Positions 554 to 32,159 of a stretch of DNA of 34,518 nucleotides are shown here, one piece after another. The first letter of the stretch is position 1, and each line of letters starts with the position of its first letter. The position numbers and the translations under genes are program-made. The stretch is taken from positions 1 through 34,518 of the IMG/VR virus record IMGVR_UViG_3300029653_000081; one strand, given 5' to 3'. A model generated the notes under the pieces. That model was not told the DNA's origin. It made no database searches and saw only the letters and a program-made list of their open reading frames with translations. Origin of the DNA: a virus (taxonomy: Duplodnaviria > Heunggongvirae > Uroviricota > Caudoviricetes).

Positions 554-724
554 GTATTTTTAAGTCACGAATGCTATCTTTTCGCATCATATTGACCTTT
601 TAATCGTTCAGGCTTATAGTTCCGCCGTCGTAGCAAATTCTGCGACCGGGTTTAGCAGCCTGAATGATTGTGCGGACAGCCGCAGATATCCGATATTGCG
701 GTATTTTTGTGTCCGTAAAACCGC

Positions 725-805
725 GTTACGCCCAAATTATGGTGGGGCGTGATGGGGAGGCTTCGGCCTGCTGGTTTCACAATCGCCAGTCTGCTAACCC
801 CGTCA
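725..805 (+). ncRNA. c4: c4 antisense RNA (immunity-I repressor RNA); boundaries approximate
   Basis: Segment 778-797 (cacaatc...ctgctaa) is antiparallel-complementary to two target pairs: ttagcag/gattgtg at 652-672 and again at 822-856. The downstream gattgtg overlaps the icd Shine-Dalgarno (gagg 855-858). A UUCG-loop hairpin lies at about 747-760. Confidence 0.55.
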
Positions 806-867
806 CGTCCTGCCACCTGTTTAGCAGCGGGTAGCAGGTTGTTAAACCTGATTGTGAGGCCGTAACT

Positions 868-3968: not shown

Positions 3969-4194
3969 TAGATTGCTCTAATCTGGAGTCACCTGGCGTT
4001 TTCAGTATGGATTTTCTTTGGCGCGGTCTGGCCATTAGGGATCATGTTTGCTGCAACATTTCTTCTGATGTGGATATTCACCCTTCCCGGTGATTTCTAT
4101 AGAAAAAAAGCCAGACATTGATACAATCATTGCGGGTGCTTGAGGCTATCTGCTTCAGGCATTACCCGAAAAGCAGATAGAAGAAAGCCCCAGA

Positions 4195-4255
4195 TAACAT
4201 TACGCGTCCTGCAAGACGCTTAACATTAATCTGAGGCAATATCTATGCTTAGCAT
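4195..4255 (-). ncRNA. sok: sok-like antisense RNA (position inferred)
   Basis: Expected opposite the mok translation initiation region. A minus-strand TTGACC -35-like hexamer is at 4284-4289. Boundaries are not determined. Confidence 0.3.
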
Positions 4256-4451
4256 ACGTAGATTAGCCTCTTACCGACCAAAAGGTCAAGGAGAAGCAGG
4301 CTATGAAGCAGCAAAAAGCGATATTAATCGCTCTGATCGTCATCTGTTTAACCGTCATTGTGACGGCACTGGTAACGAGGAAAGACCTCTGCGAGGTACG
4401 AATCCGAACCGGCCAGACGGAGGTCACTGTCTTCACAGCCTACGAATCTGA
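4245..4451 (+). CDS. mok: mok-like overlapping reading frame
   Basis: 68-aa ORF starting upstream of, and overlapping out of frame with, the hok-like CDS, as in hok/mok/sok loci. Confidence 0.45.
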   Translation: MLSIRRLASYRPKGQGEAGYEAAKSDINRSDRHLFNRHCDGTGNEERPLRGTNPNRPDGGHCLHSLRI

Positions 4452-4458
4452 AAGGTAA
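4303..4458 (+). CDS. hok: Hok/Gef-family type I toxin (51 aa)
   Basis: ATG at 4303, TAA at 4456. Translation MKQQKAILIALIVICLTVIVTALVTRKDLCEVRIRTGQTEVTVFTAYESER has the Hok hydrophobic helix and the conserved TRK.LCE.R...E...F.AYES pattern. Confidence 0.85.
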   Translation: MKQQKAILIALIVICLTVIVTALVTRKDLCEVRIRTGQTEVTVFTAYESER

Positions 4459-4532
4459 GAGACCTGGCGGGGAGAGATCCTCGCCACTCTTCGTGTGTCA
4501 GGTATCCTCAATGCACCCTTTCCTCTCCAAAT

Positions 4533-4556
4533 AAAAAAGCTCCCGAAGGAGCTTTA
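4533..4556. terminator. Stem-loop between hok (+) and the minus-strand structural genes
   Basis: aaagctcc-cgaa-ggagcttt with A-run on one side; on the minus strand it is followed by TTTTTATTT, so it likely terminates the minus-strand operon. Confidence 0.6.
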
Positions 4557-4574
4557 AAATACAAGGGATGACTC

Positions 4575-5084
4575 TTAATCCCACTCAATCCAGTTGTAGA
4601 CGATACGAAGTGACGGGCGCACAGCGGCAGTCACATCTTCGGTACTAAAGTCGATTGCATCACTGTAGATTTTGCAGTCCAACATTTCAATTGTTGTAGC
4701 AGCTTTTGTCACAGCGTTAACCCCGGAAGATTTGGATTCAGGGGTAGCAGCCATCGTGATATCAACATAGTCCTTCGCCGCAATGCGATCTTTAATGAAC
4801 TGAAGAATATCGCCTTCGATAGTCTCCACGCACTGGACCTGGATTTCCCCAGAGTTTCGAATTGGACCGTGCTGGTTGAACTTCACACCATTCGGACCAT
4901 AGTCCTCCACATCCTCGCGGGTCATTTCAGGAATTTGCGACGTGCGAACCAGTACGCTGATATCTTCATGGCCTGCAAAAGTGAGCTGGAATTCAGAAGA
5001 TACCAGTCGTTCGCCTTTGGCCGCGTTGGCAGTATAGCGGCCCTTAATAAATTTACGGTTTCCCTTAGTGTTATTGTGCCCCAT
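4575..5084 (-). CDS. Virion structural protein, possibly tail tube or baseplate (169 aa)
   Basis: Size and position in the minus-strand structural block next to the sheath-like gene. No diagnostic motif identified. Confidence 0.35.
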   Translation of the reverse strand: MGHNNTKGNRKFIKGRYTANAAKGERLVSSEFQLTFAGHEDISVLVRTSQIPEMTREDVEDYGPNGVKFNQHGPIRNSGEIQVQCVETIEGDILQFIKDRIAAKDYVDITMAATPESKSSGVNAVTKAATTIEMLDCKIYSDAIDFSTEDVTAAVRPSLRIVYNWIEWD

Positions 5085-25378: not shown

Positions 25379-28300
25379 CTATATTTTTCCGCCTACGCCT
25401 TTAAACTTCTCAATAAACGAGACGATTTTCTGGAAAACTGCCTGTTTTTTCGTTTTATATTGCGGATTCAACGGACTAAGTTTTGGTAATGTTTCGTTTA
25501 ATTCTGTGCCATTTTCGGTGGCGTATTCGCGTTTTAAAGACGTGCGAATATAGCGTTTTGCTGCATCTTCATTGAGATTTTCTTCTTTTATCAATGCTTC
25601 TGCTTCACGTTGCTGTTCGCGTTGAGCAAACGTAAAGAATGCCTCAATGATACTGGCTTTGTCTGGTAAATCATCCAGGTTCGTTTGCTGAATAAAATCG
25701 ACCACCAGGCCCTCTTTCGCCCGGTTCCCCAGGCTTGAACGAATTAAGCGTTTGACCTCTTCGATCATTTCGCCCTTGCCTTTATTTTGTCTGTTGTGTT
25801 CGAAAATCAGTCCAAGGATATAATCCAGGTTTATTTCCTGAGACTTCAGCAAATCGACCTCAAAAACCACGTCATCCCAGTCAGTGGTTGATTTCTCTTT
25901 TTTCTCAGCTTCTTTCTCACGGCGCTGCCAGTCGCGAATATCGTTATAGGCAGAACGATAATCCTGAATCTTGCGATCAGCAGGGAGACGAATTGTTTGC
26001 AATTCAGCGAACTTTTCATCATCCACATAATGTTCTGCTTTGAATTTTTCTACCGCAACAGGATCGCTAAGATCGATTTGTTGCAGGGCTTTTAGCGTGG
26101 CAAATTCATCATAGTTTTGCAGGATGTTCTCGGCACGCAGGTATTCGCCAAACAGTTTAACGAAGTCTTTCTTCTCTTTTTCACTTTCAATACTGGCAGG
26201 GTCAGGGAACCGTTGTTCCAGTTCTGAAACTACTGCCATAAAGCCGCGTTTGGCTTCACCGGTGGCAGCATCAGTAAAACCTTCCATATACTCTGCATAA
26301 CTCTTTTCTAACACCACATTTTTGGTATTTTTATCACCAAACAGCGTTATGGCATCAATGGTTGAGCGTTCCAGATCCCGAAAAGTGACAATGTTACCGA
26401 AGGTTTTAGTGGCGTTATAAATGCGGTTGGTGCGGGAAAATGCCTGCATCAGGCCGTGAAAACGCAAGTTTTTATCGACGAATAGCGTGTTCAATGTTGG
26501 AGCGTCGAAGCCGGTTAAAAACATCCCAACGACAATTAACAGATCGATATCCTGATTTTTAACCCGTTGGGCTAAATCGCGATAGTAGTTCTGAAAACCG
26601 TTACCGTCGGTGCTGAAGTTAGTTTTAAAATAGCTGTTATACTCACGAATTGCAGCGTCAAGAAACTCTTTAGCACTGCTGTCCATTGCGCTGGTATCAA
26701 AAGTTTCATCGGAAATTTCACCAATGGCATTTTGTTCTTCATTAGCGGCAAAGGAGAAGATTGTCGCAACACGCAGCGGTTTATAAGTTGCAGATTTATT
26801 AGCGGCTTCCTCTTGTAACCGTTTAAACGCCGCGTAATAGGCTTTTGCAGCATCCACGCTGCTCACTGCCAACATAGCATTAAAACCTTTTGCGCCAGGG
26901 AAAGTACGGTGCGTCTTCTGGCGGAAGTTATTCAGAATATATTGCGTAATTTCCTGTATACGCATGGGATGAAGAAACGCCTGCTGATTTTCAGCCGCAC
27001 TTAGTTTTTTCTCGTCAGTTTCTGTCTCTAAAGACTTAAACTGTGGCCGCACATCGTTGTAGTCCACCTTGAATTTGAGCACTTTTTCATCACGAATCGC
27101 ATCGGTAATTACATACGAATGCAATTCACGACCAAATACGCTGGCGGTCGTTTCTGAGCCTAAGGCGTTTTCCGGGAAAATAGGTGTGCCGGTAAAACCA
27201 AACTGATAATAGCGTTTGAATTTCTTCTTCAGGTTTTTCTGCGCTTCTCCAAACTGGCTGCGGTGGCATTCATCAAATATAAACACCACTTGCTGATTAT
27301 ATACAGGCAGGTCGCTTTCTGCTTTCATCAGGTTATTGAGTTTCTGAATAGTAGTGACGATAATTTTGTTATCGTCCTTATCCAGATTTCGTTTAAGGCC
27401 TGCGGTATTTTCCGAGCCGTTGACGCTGTCTGGCGAAAAACGCTGATATTCCTTCATGGTCTGGTAATCGAGGTCTTTCCTGTCGACCACAAAGAAGACT
27501 TTATCAATAAAGTCCAGCTCTGTTGCCAGACGCGCGGCTTTAAAGCTGGTGAGGGTTTTACCAGAACCGGTAGTGTGCCAGATATACCCACCGCTTTCCG
27601 GTTTTGACCAGTTCTTCGCTGTAAAGGAACTCTTAATTTTCCACAGAATGCGCTCGGTGGCGGCAATCTGGTACGGTCGCATCACCAGTAGCGTCTGACT
27701 ACTGTCAAAAACGCTGTAGTTCACCAGAACATTCAGCAGAGTATGTTTCTGGAAAAAGGTAGCGGTAAAGTCTTTGAGGTCTTTAATCAGCGTGTTGTCT
27801 GATTTCGCCCAATTCATGGTGAAGTCAAAACTGTTTTTATCGCGCTTTGTCGTGTTGGCAAAATAACGGGTATCGGTGCCGTTAGAAATGACAAACAGTT
27901 GCAGATACTTAAACAGGGAATTTTCGCTGTTAAAACTCTCTTTACTGTAACGATGTATCTGGTTGAAAGCCTCACGAATCGCCACCCCGCGTTTTTTTAG
28001 TTCGATTTGCACCAGCGGTAAACCATTAACCAGGATCGTGACGTCATAACGGTTAGCATGAGAACCCGTCTGTTCAAACTGCTGGATAATCTGCACCTTA
28101 TTGCGCATGAGATTCTTTTTATCTATCAAATAGATGTTCTCAAGTCGCCCGTCATCAAAAATAAAGTCGCAGATATAGTCGATATGGATTTTACGGGTTT
28201 TATCCAGAATACCATCGCTGGGGTTGTCCAGATACTGCTCCGTGAAGCGCCGCCACTCGCTGTCATTAAACATCACACCATTGAGGCTCTGAAGCTGTTC

Positions 28301-28495
28301 CCGAACATTGGACAGCATTGCCGACTGTGATTTTACGGAAATAAATTCATAACCCTGATTTTGCAGGTCCTGAATCAGTTCACGTTCCAGGTCCGATTCG
28401 CTCTGGTAGCTGTCGCCTGTTGGCTCAGCTTTGATGTACTTATCAAGAACGATAAAGTTATTGGATTCAGCAATGGTGTGTGTCTGATGAGTCAT
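25379..28495 (-). CDS. hsdR: Type I restriction enzyme R subunit HsdR (1038 aa)
   Basis: Helicase motifs TTGSGKT and [10 protein letters not shown]; size and position after hsdM-hsdS. Confidence 0.9.
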
Positions 28496-28616
28496 AGCGC
28501 ATCCTTTGTGCCGTCTGGCAAGGGCCGGAAGGGGGGTAATGGTGACTTCCGGCGCGTAAAAAATAGTCTATATACTGACCGGGTGTTAAGGTGGTCCGAT
28601 CGGTAGCAATGATCAA

Positions 28617-29822
28617 TTAATTACTGGCAGTTTCAGGTTTCGGGAAACTGAACAGTAAATCACGGTAGTATTCGTATTGTTTCTGGCGCAACTCGATTTC
28701 ACGCGGAAGACCTTCGGTGATGGAAGCTGCGATTGCATCAAACTTATCCAGAATATCCACAATACGCCCCTGTTCGTCTAAAGATTTTTGAGGGTGAGAT
28801 GGGTATGGAATAGGTACTCTGACTTGTTTCAGTGCATTAGCATTAAACTGTGGTTGCCCACCACCAGATACTAATTTATTAGCCTGTTCCCAAAAAAAAT
28901 CACTTTGTGCAAAGTGCCAGTAATATTTGGCATTAATAATCGTTTTATTTAGGTTCAACTTTATTAAAAAACCAGCGTATACTGCTGGATAATCTTCTTC
29001 AAAAATCATTGTTTTACCAAAGGTTGCCCCAGTTCTTGCCATGAGTAAATCATTTTTGTCTAAGGTATATTTCTCATTTTCCTCATTTAATTCAACGTAC
29101 ATTGGGTTTTCTTTCGATAGCTTCCCGTCTTTATTTATGTCAGTAATTCTCACGAAACGGGCATCTCCTGAATCCATGGCTTTGGCTGCATATCCATATG
29201 TAAAATCTCCAATTTCCCCCAAAGTCTTCCACTCAACCTCACCATCTTTAAAACTCAACAACTGGTCGCGATAGTAGTTGTACTGTTTTTTACGCATGTT
29301 AAGCTCAGCGGTAAGCTCAGCGGTAAGTGCAGTAAATTTATCCAGAATCCGAACGATTTCAGACTGGATGGCAAGGGATTTTTCCGGATTATCCGGGCAG
29401 GGGATGGGGATAGGGAAATTCTCTAAGGTTGATAGCACGATATATGTCATTGCCGCGCTATTTGTTCTTTCCTCGAGATATTTCTTCAGGCTATGGCTAA
29501 GCACAAAATACAAAAATCTAACACTTACATTTTCGTCGAAATTTGTCAGAACATAGGTGCGCTGATAAGCCTCAAACTTGCCGATGTAATGCTTCACCTC
29601 ACCAACATTCGCATTGCCTGCAATCAGCAATGCCTCTGTATCCCAGCGGAATTTATCAATTTTGCTTGTCTCTTTGGCTGTCGTGAAGAACATATACTCT
29701 CCATCATCAACAGCCGCATTCGCATTAAGCTTTCCTGTTTCAATTTTGCAAGTTTGCCCAAGTGTCTTCCACTCAACCTCAACCCCATCCAGCAATTTTT
29801 CCAGATAACTCATCTCGCTCAT
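28617..29822 (-). CDS. hsdS: Type I specificity subunit HsdS (401 aa)
   Basis: Two target-recognition halves each ending in a conserved repeat ([19 protein letters not shown] and [19 protein letters not shown]); 4-nt overlap with hsdM. Confidence 0.85.
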
Positions 29823-31381
29823 TTCTGCACCTCGCAGCCTTCAATTTCAGCCACAATTGCATCAATATCTTTACGCAACTGGTCGATTTTGCTGACCGTG
29901 GTTTTCAGCTCTGCATTCAGCTCACCGATATCGATAATTTCGCGGTTATCTTTCGCTTCCACATAGCTGCTCACCGACAGGTTATAGTCATTCGCGACAA
30001 CAGTCTCAAACGCAACAGATTTCGCCAGATGAGCAACATCTTCCTTGCTGGCAAATACCTGCATAATCTGTTCGATATGGGCATCGGTCAGGATATTGTT
30101 GTTGGTTTCTTTTTTGAACAGTTCGCTGGCATCAATAAACTGAACTTTGGTATCCGTTTTATGTTTAGACAGCACCAGAATGTTTACAGCAATAGTGGTG
30201 CCAAAGAACAGGTTCGGTGCCAGTGAAATCACGGTTTCGACATAGTTATTATCGACCAGATACTGACGGATTTTCTGCTCCGCGCCGCCACGGTAAAAAA
30301 TACCCGGGAAGCAGACAATCGCAGCACGACCTTTGGCCGAAAGATAGTTCAGCGCATGTAGTACAAACGCAAAGTCAGCTTTGGATTTGGGGGCCAGGAC
30401 GCCAGCCGGGGCAAAACGTTCATCGTTAATCAGCGTCGGGTCATCGCTGCCAATCCATTTCACCGAATACGGCGGGTTAGAAACGATGGCATCAAACGGT
30501 TTTTCATCTCTGAAGTGTGGCTCAGTCAGTGTATTACCCAGCTTGATATCAAACTTGTCGTAGTTGATGTTGTGCAAAAACATGTTCATACGTGCCAGGT
30601 TATAGGTTGTATGGTTGATTTCCTGACCAAAAAAGCCTTCTTCGATGATATGGTTATCAAACTGCTTTTTAGCCTGCAACAACAGTGAGCCGGAACCCGC
30701 TGCCGGGTCGTAGATTTTGTTAACGTTGGTCTGCCCGTGCATAGCCAGTTGTGCAATCAGCTTGGAGACGTGCTGCGGTGTAAAGAACTCACCGCCTGAC
30801 TTACCGGCATTTGCCGCATAGTTAGAAATCAGGAACTCATAGGCATCACCGAACAGGTCAATCTGATGTTCGTTGAAGTCACCAAGTTTTAACCCTTCAA
30901 CCCCTTTCAGAACCGCAGCCAGGCGGGCATTTTTATCTTTAACGGTGTTACCCAGGCGGTTACTGGTGGTATCGAAATCAGCAAACAAACCTTTGATGTC
31001 TGCTTCTGAAGGGTAGCCGTAAGCAGAACTTTCGATAGCAACGAAGATGCTGTTTAAATCTGCGTTCAGTCTGTCATTGGTATTTGCTTTCGCAGCTACG
31101 TTGCAGAAAAGCTGACTGGGGTAGATGAAGTAGCCTTTAGTTTTGATGGCATCGTCTTTAATGTCATCAGTAATTACGCTGTCATCCAGTTTCGCATAAC
31201 AGATACTGTCATCACCGGCTTCAATATAACTGGAAAAATTTTCGCTGATAAAACGGTAGAAAAGTGCGCCCAGAACGTATTGCTTAAAATCCCATCCATC
31301 GACCGAACCCCTGACATCGTTAGCAATTTGCCAGATTTGACGATGAAGCTCTGCACGTTGTTGAATACTTGTCATTTTCAT
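29819..31381 (-). CDS. hsdM: Type I N6-adenine methyltransferase HsdM (520 aa)
   Basis: NPPY motif ([10 protein letters not shown]) and AdoMet-binding [11 protein letters not shown]. Confidence 0.9.
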
Positions 31382-31557: not shown

Positions 31558-31779
31558 ATGCAATCCATTAACTTCCGTACCGCGCGCGGCAACCTTTCTG
31601 AAGTGCTCAACAATGTTGAAGCCGGGGAAGAGGTTGAAATCACCCGCAGAGGTCGTGAGCCAGCAGTAATTGTCAGCAAGGCTACTTTCGAAGCCTACAA
31701 AAAAGCGGCGCTGGATGCTGAATTTGCATCCCTGTTTGACACCCTGGACTCCACCAACAAGGAACTGGTTAACCGATAA
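31558..31779 (+). CDS. phd: Phd antitoxin (73 aa)
   Basis: [39 protein letters not shown]... matches P1 Phd as recalled; stop overlaps doc start (TAATG). Confidence 0.95.
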
Positions 31780-32159
31780 TGAGGCATATATCACCGGAAG
31801 AACTTATTGCGCTTCATGATGCGAATATAAGCCGCTACGGCGGCCTGCCGGGAATGTCAGATCCGGGTAGGGCAGAGGCCATTATCGGGAGAGTTCAGGC
31901 CAGAGTTGCCTACGAAGAGATCACCGACCTTTTCGAAGTCTCCGCCACCTACCTGGTGGCTACAGCGAGAGGGCATATATTCAATGATGCCAATAAGCGT
32001 ACCGCGCTAAACAGCGCGCTGCTATTTCTACGCCGTAACGGGGTGCAGGTATTTGATTCACCTGAACTGGCAGACCTTACTGTAGGCGCTGCGACTGGCG
32101 AGATATCTGTATCTTCTGTCGCCGACACGTTACGTAGATTGTATGGTTCTGCGGAGTAG
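31779..32159 (+). CDS. doc: Doc toxin (Fic-fold kinase, 126 aa)
   Basis: Fic-type motif [10 protein letters not shown]; tight coupling to phd. Confidence 0.95.

What the first reader, a model, noticed from the sequence alone, without database searches (positions are those of the whole stretch)
4180..4560. hok/mok/sok-type toxin-antitoxin locus between the lytic replicon and the structural genes
The 51-aa ORF at 4303-4458 has the Hok membrane helix and conserved C-terminal pattern, with an overlapping upstream frame at 4245-4451 in the mok position. I do not recall hok/sok being part of P1, so this element would carry two addiction systems (hok/sok and phd/doc) of different types. The leader and 3' fold-back elements could not be mapped by eye.
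Basis: partly seen in the sequence, partly recalled or inferred. Interest (0 to 1): 0.6.

Follow-up and report, generated by a model that had tools for sequence, protein, structure and literature searches.

The report
Intact hok/mok/sok toxin-antitoxin cassette
The region is a complete, textbook hok/mok/sok RNA-controlled toxin–antitoxin cassette on a P1-like phage-plasmid; the reference P1 genome lacks it, but hundreds of public P1-like plasmids carry it already annotated, so it is real but ordinary.

Summary
The ORF at 4303-4458 is a Hok/Gef toxin (Pfam E 1.3e-21). The leader at 4134-4308 matches Rfam RF01794 at 114 bits. The mok frame at 4245-4451 starts 58 nt before hok, as in plasmid R1. 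These are the hok promoter (4100-4127), tac (4134-4145) pairing with fbi (4506-4518), the anti-SD box (4187-4191), and the mok SD (4233-4236). They also include an antisense Sok gene (about 4253 to 4183, minus strand) with its own promoter boxes. Across 15 loci from six genera, 96.8% of structure cells pair and 16 pairs carry compensatory changes.

The window is a P1-like plasmid prophage that also carries phd/doc (31558-32159). A 550-bp segment (3983-4532) replaces rlfA-rlfB-pmgF of reference P1. This allele is common: 227 PLSDB plasmids have it intact, 162 have it interrupted by an IS186-family element, and 99 have the rlfA allele. RefSeq annotates it as hokD.

The most likely function is post-segregational killing. 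A phage-defence role is a weaker alternative. No experiment here shows expression or toxicity. Novelty: already known. Interest is low.

The parts
3983..4532 (+). 550-bp segment that replaces 1826 bp of reference P1 (rlfA, rlfB, pmgF). The left breakpoint lies inside C1 operator Op55. The right breakpoint lies just before the bplB terminator.
   Evidence: blastn against NC_005856; P1 annotation; junction alignments
4005..4121 (+). Remnant (C-terminal 38 codons) of an 81-aa small membrane protein gene that arrived with the cassette. A 138-bp deletion removed its 5' half.
   Evidence: PGAP pseudogene 'membrane domain protein, missing N-terminus' in an identical record; full-length gene in L053 and L002
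4100..4127 (+). hok promoter: -35 TAGAAA (4100-4105), 16-nt spacer, TG-extended -10 TACAAT (4122-4127).
   Evidence: promoter scan. A TAnnnT -10 box sits at the same distance from the conserved GGG(T/C)GCTT start in 18 of 19 loci (all but L041) whose upstream DNA is otherwise unrelated.
4134..4518 (+). Full-length hok (mok-hok) mRNA unit, from the tac 5' end to the fbi 3' element. The true 3' end was not mapped.
   Evidence: Most of the 46 genome loci that carry a complete unit start homology at 4131-4134 and end it at 4518-4520. MFE fold z -8.9. Covariation in alignment A1.
4134..4145 (+). tac (translational activator element), GGGTGCTTGAGG. It pairs with fbi in the inactive full-length RNA.
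   Evidence: duplex dG -21 kcal/mol; conserved in 15 of 20 loci; pair 4/402 is U-A in 9, C-G in 5, U-G in 1
4187..4191 (+). ucb / anti-SD box GCCCC. It pairs with the mok Shine-Dalgarno region in the closed form.
   Evidence: A1 helix 4 (columns 56-61 with 101-106), 98.7% paired, with one compensatory pair; element definition from PMC9841398
4183..4253 (-). Sok antisense RNA (about 71 nt). It has a single-stranded 5' tail over the mok start region, a long hairpin (4237-4191), and a U-rich tail.
   Evidence: positional homology to the annotated sokW of phage 933W; fold -31.9 kcal/mol, z -4.8. Ends are inferred, not mapped.
4260..4289 (-). Sok promoter: -35 TTGACC (4289-4284), 18-nt spacer, -10 TAATCT (4265-4260).
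   Evidence: read from the minus strand. TTG of the -35 box is invariant and TAnnnT of the -10 box is kept in 13 of 15 loci. The consensus scanner did not call it.
4233..4236 (+). mok Shine-Dalgarno GAGG, inside the Sok-complementary region.
   Evidence: sequence; invariant in A1; same motif as the R1 mok SD (PMC9841398)
4245..4451 (+). mok leader ORF (68 codons). It overlaps hok in the +1 frame and starts 58 nt before the hok ATG.
   Evidence: ORF list. An ATG lies at the mok position in all 15 relatives (shifted a few nucleotides in Pantoea). It opens a 55-70-codon frame in 14; the E. ruysiae L018 frame stops after 19 codons. R1 coordinates are 116-118 and 174-176.
4266..4270 (+). dcb (GCCTC). 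It pairs with the mok SD region in the processed, open form.
   Evidence: Rfam RF01794 structure alignment; definition in PMC9841398
4303..4458 (+). hok toxin gene (51 aa); SD GGAG at 4290-4293.
   Evidence: Pfam HOK_GEF E 1.3e-21; annotated hokD (WP_001352007.1) in identical plasmids
4466..4485 (+). 3' stem-loop of the hok mRNA (GGCGGGGA-GAGA-TCCTCGCC). Positions 4470-4480 are the IS186/IS421 insertion site in 162 related plasmids. It is uninterrupted here.
   Evidence: A1 helix 14; IS junctions; 10-bp direct repeat GGATCTCTCC in PMC6906374
4506..4518 (+). fbi (fold-back inhibitory element), CCTCAATGCACCC. It is complementary to tac with one bulged T.
4536..4555 (.). Hairpin shared with the converging bplB operon. 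It is a clear terminator on the minus strand and a possible 3' end for hok transcripts.
   Evidence: terminator scan; P1 homology resumes at 4533
31558..32159 (+). phd/doc type II addiction module, the second toxin-antitoxin system on the same element.
   Evidence: tblastn 100% to P1 Phd and Doc; Pfam PhdYeFM_antitox and Fic

Best explanation
This is a structurally intact type I toxin-antitoxin locus of the hok/mok/sok family, carried as cargo by a P1-like plasmid prophage. A weak promoter (4100-4127) makes a stable hok mRNA starting at 4134. In the full-length RNA the 5' tac element pairs with the 3' fbi element, and the mok ribosome-binding site is held by the anti-SD box, so nothing is translated. 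Slow 3' trimming removes fbi, the leader refolds, and the mok start region is exposed. Translation of mok then allows translation of the overlapping hok. While the plasmid is present, the short unstable Sok RNA (minus strand, about 4253 to 4183) pairs with the mok start region and the duplex is destroyed. A cell that loses the plasmid runs out of Sok first, makes Hok from leftover mRNA, and dies from membrane damage. The locus would thus add a second addiction layer beside phd/doc and the par system. The sequence anatomy and conserved RNA structure are shown here. Transcription, processing, Sok expression, toxicity and plasmid stabilisation are inferred from the R1 paradigm.
For: The toxin belongs to the Hok/Gef family. 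The leader matches RF01794 over its full length at 114 bits, including the tac stem, the Sok-target hairpin and the SD/dcb stem. tac/fbi pairing has dG -21 kcal/mol. It is conserved at the same distance in 15 of 20 loci, with a compensatory U-A to C-G change. The consensus structure of 15 loci from Escherichia, Kluyvera, Citrobacter, Pantoea, Photorhabdus and an unclassified Enterobacteriaceae genome has 82 pairs. Of its cells, 96.8% are paired, against 37-48% when partners are slid. Sixteen pairs carry double changes, and 0 of 500 shuffles reach these values. Most relatives with a complete unit start homology at 4131-4134 and end it at 4518-4520, which are the RNA unit boundaries. The -10 box is positionally conserved. 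Sok promoter boxes, a hairpin and a U-rich tail are present and align with the annotated SokW. The mok start has the same 58-nt offset as R1. The cassette has no IS insertion, unlike 162 related plasmids. par genes and phd/doc on the same element show a plasmid lifestyle.
Against: There is no expression or phenotype data for this locus. The Sok -10 box (TAATCT) is weak and the consensus scanner did not call it. The MFE fold of a 3'-truncated RNA did not reproduce the published open conformation. About 40% of plasmid copies of this allele carry an IS between hok and fbi, so loss of function is tolerated. A strain cured of the near-identical phage phi456 was obtained, so killing cannot be absolute. 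E. coli chromosomes often carry prophage hok loci that are 84-91% identical, and their Sok RNAs might cross-repress. However, the Sok recognition region is among the most variable stretches.
Confidence: 0.85

Rival explanations
1. The locus is the same intact hok/sok cassette, but its selected role is anti-phage defence (abortive infection) or competition with other mobile elements, not plasmid stabilisation. An infecting phage shuts off host transcription, Sok decays, and Hok kills the cell before the phage completes.
For: The cassette occupies the slot where reference P1 has rlfA-rlfB. Those proteins match the PADLOC candidate defence system PDC-M04A/B at E 1e-95 and 1e-51. The slot is a recognised variable region of P1-like plasmids (PMC9603915; PMC6906374), with at least three alleles. 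The element already has par and phd/doc for stability. From my own knowledge, R1 hok/sok was reported to exclude T4 (Pecota and Wood 1996).
Against: Hok itself has no PADLOC model hit. No defence phenotype is known for this allele. PDC-M04 is only a candidate system, and the literature search found no paper on it. The cassette's closest relatives sit in lambdoid prophages at varied positions.
Confidence: 0.2
2. The cassette is a selfish passenger or silent relic with no phenotype in its current hosts, like most chromosomal hok loci.
For: 162 plasmids tolerate an IS186-family insertion that separates hok from fbi. Other P1-like plasmids keep only the leader and sok part. A neighbouring gene of the same insert is already truncated here. 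From my own knowledge, chromosomal hok loci of K-12 are inactivated. The K-12-type hokD matches only from 4289 onward.
Against: In this window every regulatory element is intact and obeys family-wide covariation. 227 plasmids keep the uninterrupted unit at 98.6-100% identity among the copies listed. A single-copy R1 hok on the chromosome is lethal without Sok (PMC9841398).
Confidence: 0.1
3. The cassette has a lytic-cycle role. Read-through from the C1-controlled kilA-repL operon during induction would produce 5'-extended hok transcripts and Hok-assisted membrane damage or lysis.
For: hok lies 165 nt downstream of repL on the same strand, with only a weak terminator-like hairpin between them (4078-4093). 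The breakpoint keeps 11 of 17 nt of C1 operator Op55.
Against: There is no evidence for such transcripts. The unit carries its own positionally conserved promoter and exact tac 5' end. The same cassette sits in unrelated contexts in lambdoid prophages. P1 has its own holin and endolysin system (my own knowledge).
Confidence: 0.03

Closest known systems
hokW/mokW/sokW of Shiga-toxin phage 933W, and related lambdoid or Rac prophage hok loci (named hokD by PGAP)
   Same: The hok unit 4131-4518 is 87% identical to 933W and 91% to a Rac phage record. The unit boundaries are identical, the leader has the same 16-nt insertion hairpin in the Sok stem, and the Rfam score is the same.
   Different: The host element is a P1-like plasmid prophage, not an integrated lambdoid phage. 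The promoter-upstream DNA is unrelated. One extra T (4286) puts mok out of frame with hok (58-nt offset) and widens the Sok promoter spacer to 18 nt; in 933W mok is an in-frame extension of hok. The Sok 5'-tail/target region differs.
hok/mok/sok (parB) of plasmid R1, the experimental paradigm
   Same: The architecture is the same: tac/fbi, ucb, mok SD GAGG, dcb, a 58-nt offset between mok and hok, an antisense Sok from a promoter inside the mok leader, and a 3' stem-loop.
   Different: The protein is only 42% identical to R1 Hok as I recalled it. The DNA is too diverged for blastn. The Sok hairpin is longer. The 3' end and terminator are not homologous.
hokD (relF) of E. coli K-12
   Same: The coding region and 3' UTR are 91% identical from 4289 to 4518. 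PGAP uses this name for the window's protein.
   Different: The K-12 locus lacks the whole leader, mok start and sok (no match upstream of 4289). The window's locus is complete.
rlfA-rlfB-pmgF allele of reference P1 and P7
   Same: It occupies the same slot between repL and bplB, with identical flanks.
   Different: The content is unrelated. RlfA/RlfB match the PADLOC candidate system PDC-M04. It is 1826 bp against 550 bp.

Membership tests
hok/mok/sok type I toxin-antitoxin | Hok/Gef-family toxin of about 50 aa with an N-terminal membrane helix and a conserved C-terminal part | tested here: met
   Pfam PF01848 E 1.3e-21, profile positions 2-42 of 42; aligns with 14 relatives across the whole ORF
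hok/mok/sok type I toxin-antitoxin | Overlapping mok leader ORF with its own SD, starting upstream of hok, whose initiation region is the antisense target | tested here: met
   ORF 4245-4451, SD GAGG 4233-4236, 58-nt offset as in R1. An ATG lies at the mok position in all 15 loci, opening a long frame in 14.
hok/mok/sok type I toxin-antitoxin | Conserved hok mRNA leader structure (tac stem, Sok-target hairpin, SD/dcb stem) | tested here: met
   Rfam RF01794 114.3 bits against gathering score 59, model positions 1-157 of 157
hok/mok/sok type I toxin-antitoxin | Long-range tac/fbi pairing between the 5' and 3' ends of the mRNA | tested here: met
   4134-4145 with 4506-4518, dG -21 kcal/mol; predicted in the MFE fold; a compensatory change across genera
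hok/mok/sok type I toxin-antitoxin | cis-encoded antisense Sok RNA with its own promoter and terminator | tested here: inconclusive
   Conserved -35/-10 boxes, a hairpin with a U-rich tail (z -4.8) and alignment to the annotated SokW support it. The promoter falls below the scanner threshold, and no transcript data exist.
hok/mok/sok type I toxin-antitoxin | 3' processing of the mRNA, differential RNA stability, and killing of plasmid-free cells | not testable with these tools
   This requires northern blots, RACE and plasmid-loss assays.
P1-like phage-plasmid (Punavirus) | P1 immunity, lytic replicon, partition and addiction genes in P1 order | tested here: met
   C4 RNA and its targets; kilA, repL and bplB at 97-99% identity to P1; ParA/ParB; Phd/Doc 100%

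The most novel reading that the evidence does not exclude
The repL-bplB interval of P1-like phage-plasmids may be a cargo hotspot for conflict systems. In it, the so-called replication-linked genes rlfA/rlfB (a PADLOC PDC-M04-type candidate defence pair), an intact hok/sok, an IS-disabled hok/sok and an orphan sok (antitoxin-only) allele would alternate. On this reading hok/sok acts mainly in phage exclusion or in competition between incompatible P1-like plasmids. The orphan sok alleles would then serve as anti-addiction immunity against hok-bearing rivals.
Probability: 0.2. Interest if true: 0.5.

Novelty: already known. Interest (0 to 1): 0.2.

Why it matters
The main value is for annotation. 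The reference P1 genome is not representative at this site, and the hok/sok allele is about twice as common among sequenced P1-like plasmids. P1-like phage-plasmids spread resistance genes, so a second addiction module of a different type (RNA-controlled, beside the protein-controlled phd/doc) helps explain their persistence and the difficulty of curing them. The allele series (intact, IS-split, orphan sok, rlfAB) would be a convenient natural system for testing addiction against defence, but nothing here changes how hok/sok is understood.

Tried and rejected
1. A distant blastn search of plasmids with the hok unit reached relatives only down to about 74% identity (Pantoea) and did not reach R1, F or other classical hok loci. 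Comparison with R1 therefore rests on the Rfam model, on a paper (PMC9841398) and on a recalled protein sequence.
2. The MFE fold of a 3'-truncated RNA (4134-4492) gave the tac metastable hairpin, not the published open form. Single-sequence MFE is not decisive for the switch.
3. The promoter scanner did not call the Sok promoter. I read it by eye and from conservation.
4. An ungapped search for fbi failed because of the bulged T. RNAduplex solved this.
5. PADLOC has no model hit for Hok, the 81-aa membrane protein or the 198-aa allele-3 protein.
6. Literature searches found no paper that names hok/sok in P1-like plasmids and none on PDC-M04. Venturini et al. only mention an 'antibacterial toxin' ORF in this slot.
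7. A chance ORF is rejected on the Pfam and Rfam E-values and on the covariation.
8. I considered C1 control of hok through Op55. The operator remnant lies 110 bp upstream of the hok promoter and does not overlap it.

Full report
**What is in the sequence**

The 51-aa product matches Pfam HOK_GEF over the whole profile, with E 1.3e-21 and 76 bits against a cut-off of 22. Rfam RF01794 ('sok') matches 4134-4308 on the + strand over the full model at 114.3 bits, against a gathering score of 59 (E 1.6e-25). The transcript region 4134-4560 folds far better than shuffled sequence, with z -8.9.

One caveat concerns the Rfam name. The model matches the hok-sense strand. In phage 933W the same model hits the strand opposite to the annotated sokW. 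The hit thus identifies the hok leader, and Sok is the reverse complement of part of it.

**Anatomy**

Most of the 46 genome loci that carry a complete unit, drawn from several genera, start homology at 4131-4134 and end it at 4518-4520. This delimits the RNA unit.

- **hok promoter and start.** Upstream DNA is unrelated between loci, but a TAnnnT -10 box always ends 6 nt before the conserved GGG(T/C)GCTT start. Here the promoter is TAGAAA, a 16-nt spacer, then TG-extended TACAAT, at 4100-4127.
- **tac and fbi.** The 5' element tac (4134-4145) pairs with fbi (4506-4518), with dG -21 kcal/mol and one bulged T. The pairing recurs at the same distance in 15 of 20 loci. Escherichia has U-A where five of the Photorhabdus and Pantoea loci have C-G.
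- **Consensus structure.** An RNAalifold consensus of 15 loci gives 82 pairs. Of its cells, 96.8% are paired, against 37-48% when partners are slid by 1-3 columns. Sixteen pairs show changes on both sides, and 0 of 500 shuffles reach the observed values. The helices include:
  - tac/fbi;
  - the tac metastable hairpin;
  - the anti-SD box GCCCC (4187-4191) pairing with the mok SD region (GAGG, 4233-4236);
  - sequestration of the hok start (4301-4312 with 4426-4438);
  - a long-range helix of 4268-4274 with 4455-4461;
  - a 3' stem-loop (4466-4485).
- **Open form.** The Rfam alignment adds the tac stem and the SD/dcb stem (dcb at 4266-4270) of the open form. I took element names and the mechanism from Le Rhun et al. 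2022, PMC9841398.
- **Sok gene.** On the minus strand, -35 TTGACC (4289-4284) and -10 TAATCT (4265-4260) precede an RNA of about 71 nt (4253 to 4183). This RNA aligns with the annotated SokW. It folds into a free 5' tail over the mok start, a long hairpin and a U-rich tail, at -31.9 kcal/mol and z -4.8.
- **mok.** The mok ATG lies 58 nt before the hok ATG, the same offset as in R1 (116-118 against 174-176).

**Context**

The window is a P1-like plasmid prophage.

- It carries C4 RNA and its targets.
- kilA, repL, bplB and the tail genes are 97-99% identical to P1.
- ParA/ParB are present.
- Phd and Doc are 100% identical to P1's, at 31558-32159.

Relative to reference P1 (NC_005856), window 3983-4532 (550 bp) replaces 1826 bp holding rlfA, rlfB and pmgF. 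The left breakpoint lies inside C1 operator Op55. The right breakpoint lies just before the bplB terminator. P7 also has the rlf allele.

The insert also holds the 3' remnant (4005-4121) of an 81-aa membrane protein gene. That gene is full length in other records.

**How common and how known**

| Allele at the repL-bplB slot | PLSDB plasmids |
|---|---|
| Uninterrupted hok-bplB junction | 227 |
| Same allele with an IS186/IS421 element at 4470-4480, between hok and fbi | 162 |
| rlfA-rlfB-pmgF allele | 99 |

In addition, 383 of 5426 complete E. coli genomes hold the 550-bp segment. RefSeq annotates the ORF as 'type I toxin-antitoxin system toxin HokD', and one P1 record calls it MokW.

Venturini et al. 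2019 (PMC6906374) noted ORFs 'including antibacterial toxin' replacing rlfA-rlfB-pmgF, and they noted the IS186B insertion. Yang et al. 2022 (PMC9603915) list rlfA-rlfB-pmgF as a highly variable region.

Phage phi456 is 99.6% identical across 4100-4600. It is inducible and forms plaques. The allele is therefore compatible with the phage lifestyle.

**Mechanism**

The best-supported reading is the R1 paradigm. The steps are a stable, folded, untranslatable hok mRNA, slow 3' trimming that removes fbi, and refolding that frees the mok start. Sok pairing and duplex decay protect cells while the plasmid is present. Hok synthesis and death follow plasmid loss. All cis elements needed for this are present, intact and under family-wide covariation. 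Expression, processing and killing are inferred.

- **Defence rival.** A defence or competition role is a real alternative. The displaced P1 genes RlfA/RlfB match the PADLOC candidate defence pair PDC-M04 (E 1e-95 and 1e-51), and the slot has at least three alleles.
- **Silent-relic rival.** This reading draws some support from the frequent IS insertion and from alleles that keep only the leader and sok. It fits this intact copy poorly.

**Comparison and verdict**

The closest relatives are prophage hok loci of the hokW/hokD type, at 87-91% DNA identity. R1 hok/sok is the functional paradigm, at 42% protein identity. K-12 hokD shares only the coding and 3' part.

One small difference from most near relatives is a single extra T at 4286. 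It puts mok out of frame with hok, as in R1, and widens the Sok promoter spacer to 18 nt.

The locus passes every sequence-level membership test. The functional tests could not be run. It is a correct call of an already known, already annotated element, and its interest is low.

Noticed in passing
L003:2238-3406 (reference P1 rlfA, rlfB; absent from the window): P1 RlfA and RlfB are annotated as 'possibly associated with lytic replication'. They match the PADLOC candidate anti-phage system PDC-M04A/B at E 1e-95 and 1e-51. The slot that holds hok/sok here may therefore be a defence or accessory cargo hotspot.
   Followed up: partly
window 4470-4480: In 162 PLSDB plasmids an IS186/IS421 element sits exactly here, in the 3' stem-loop of the hok mRNA, and separates hok from fbi. 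The window's copy is uninterrupted. I did not resolve whether this was one inherited event or a recurrent hotspot.
   Followed up: partly
L053:2504-3270 (NZ_CP076303.1): This is a third allele of the slot. The full hok leader with the Sok gene and promoter-like boxes is kept (Rfam 89.7 bits), but the hok ORF is replaced by an unrelated 198-aa ORF on the other strand. It is an orphan sok that could act as anti-addiction immunity.
   Followed up: partly
window 4005-4121: This is the C-terminal remnant of an 81-aa small membrane protein gene (WP_001426344.1 in other records). A 138-bp deletion at a 6-bp repeat (4004-4009) removed its start. Its function is unknown and it has no significant Pfam hit.
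   Followed up: partly
window 4286, and alignment A1: A 1-nt indel toggles mok between in frame with hok (57-nt offset, 10 of 15 loci, giving an N-terminally extended Hok) and out of frame (58 nt; the window, L025, L027, and R1). The same base changes the Sok promoter spacer from 17 to 18 nt.
   Followed up: partly
window 4134-4308; L004:1504-1678: Rfam RF01794 is named 'sok antitoxin' but matches the hok-sense strand from +1 to the hok ATG. In 933W the annotated sokW lies on the opposite strand. Automated annotation from this model would put Sok on the wrong strand.
   Followed up: yes
window 4237-4263: The Sok 5'-tail/mok start region is one of the most variable stretches among otherwise 87-90% identical hok loci, with pairwise identity of 0.69-0.74 against 0.9-1.0 for most flanking stretches. 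This is consistent with diversification of antisense specificity.
   Followed up: partly
window 25379-31381 (minus strand): A complete type I restriction-modification system (HsdR, HsdS, HsdM) lies next to phd/doc. Reference P1 has other genes at this position, according to the literature on P1-like variable regions.
   Followed up: partly
window 3972-3988: The left recombination breakpoint lies inside C1 operator Op55. The conserved first 11 nt (ATTGCTCTAAT) are kept and the last 6 nt are replaced. I did not test whether C1 still binds.
   Followed up: no
window 614-820: The P1 immI elements, C4 antisense RNA (735-820) and its a1/b1 targets (614-666), are present at Rfam gathering level.
   Followed up: no
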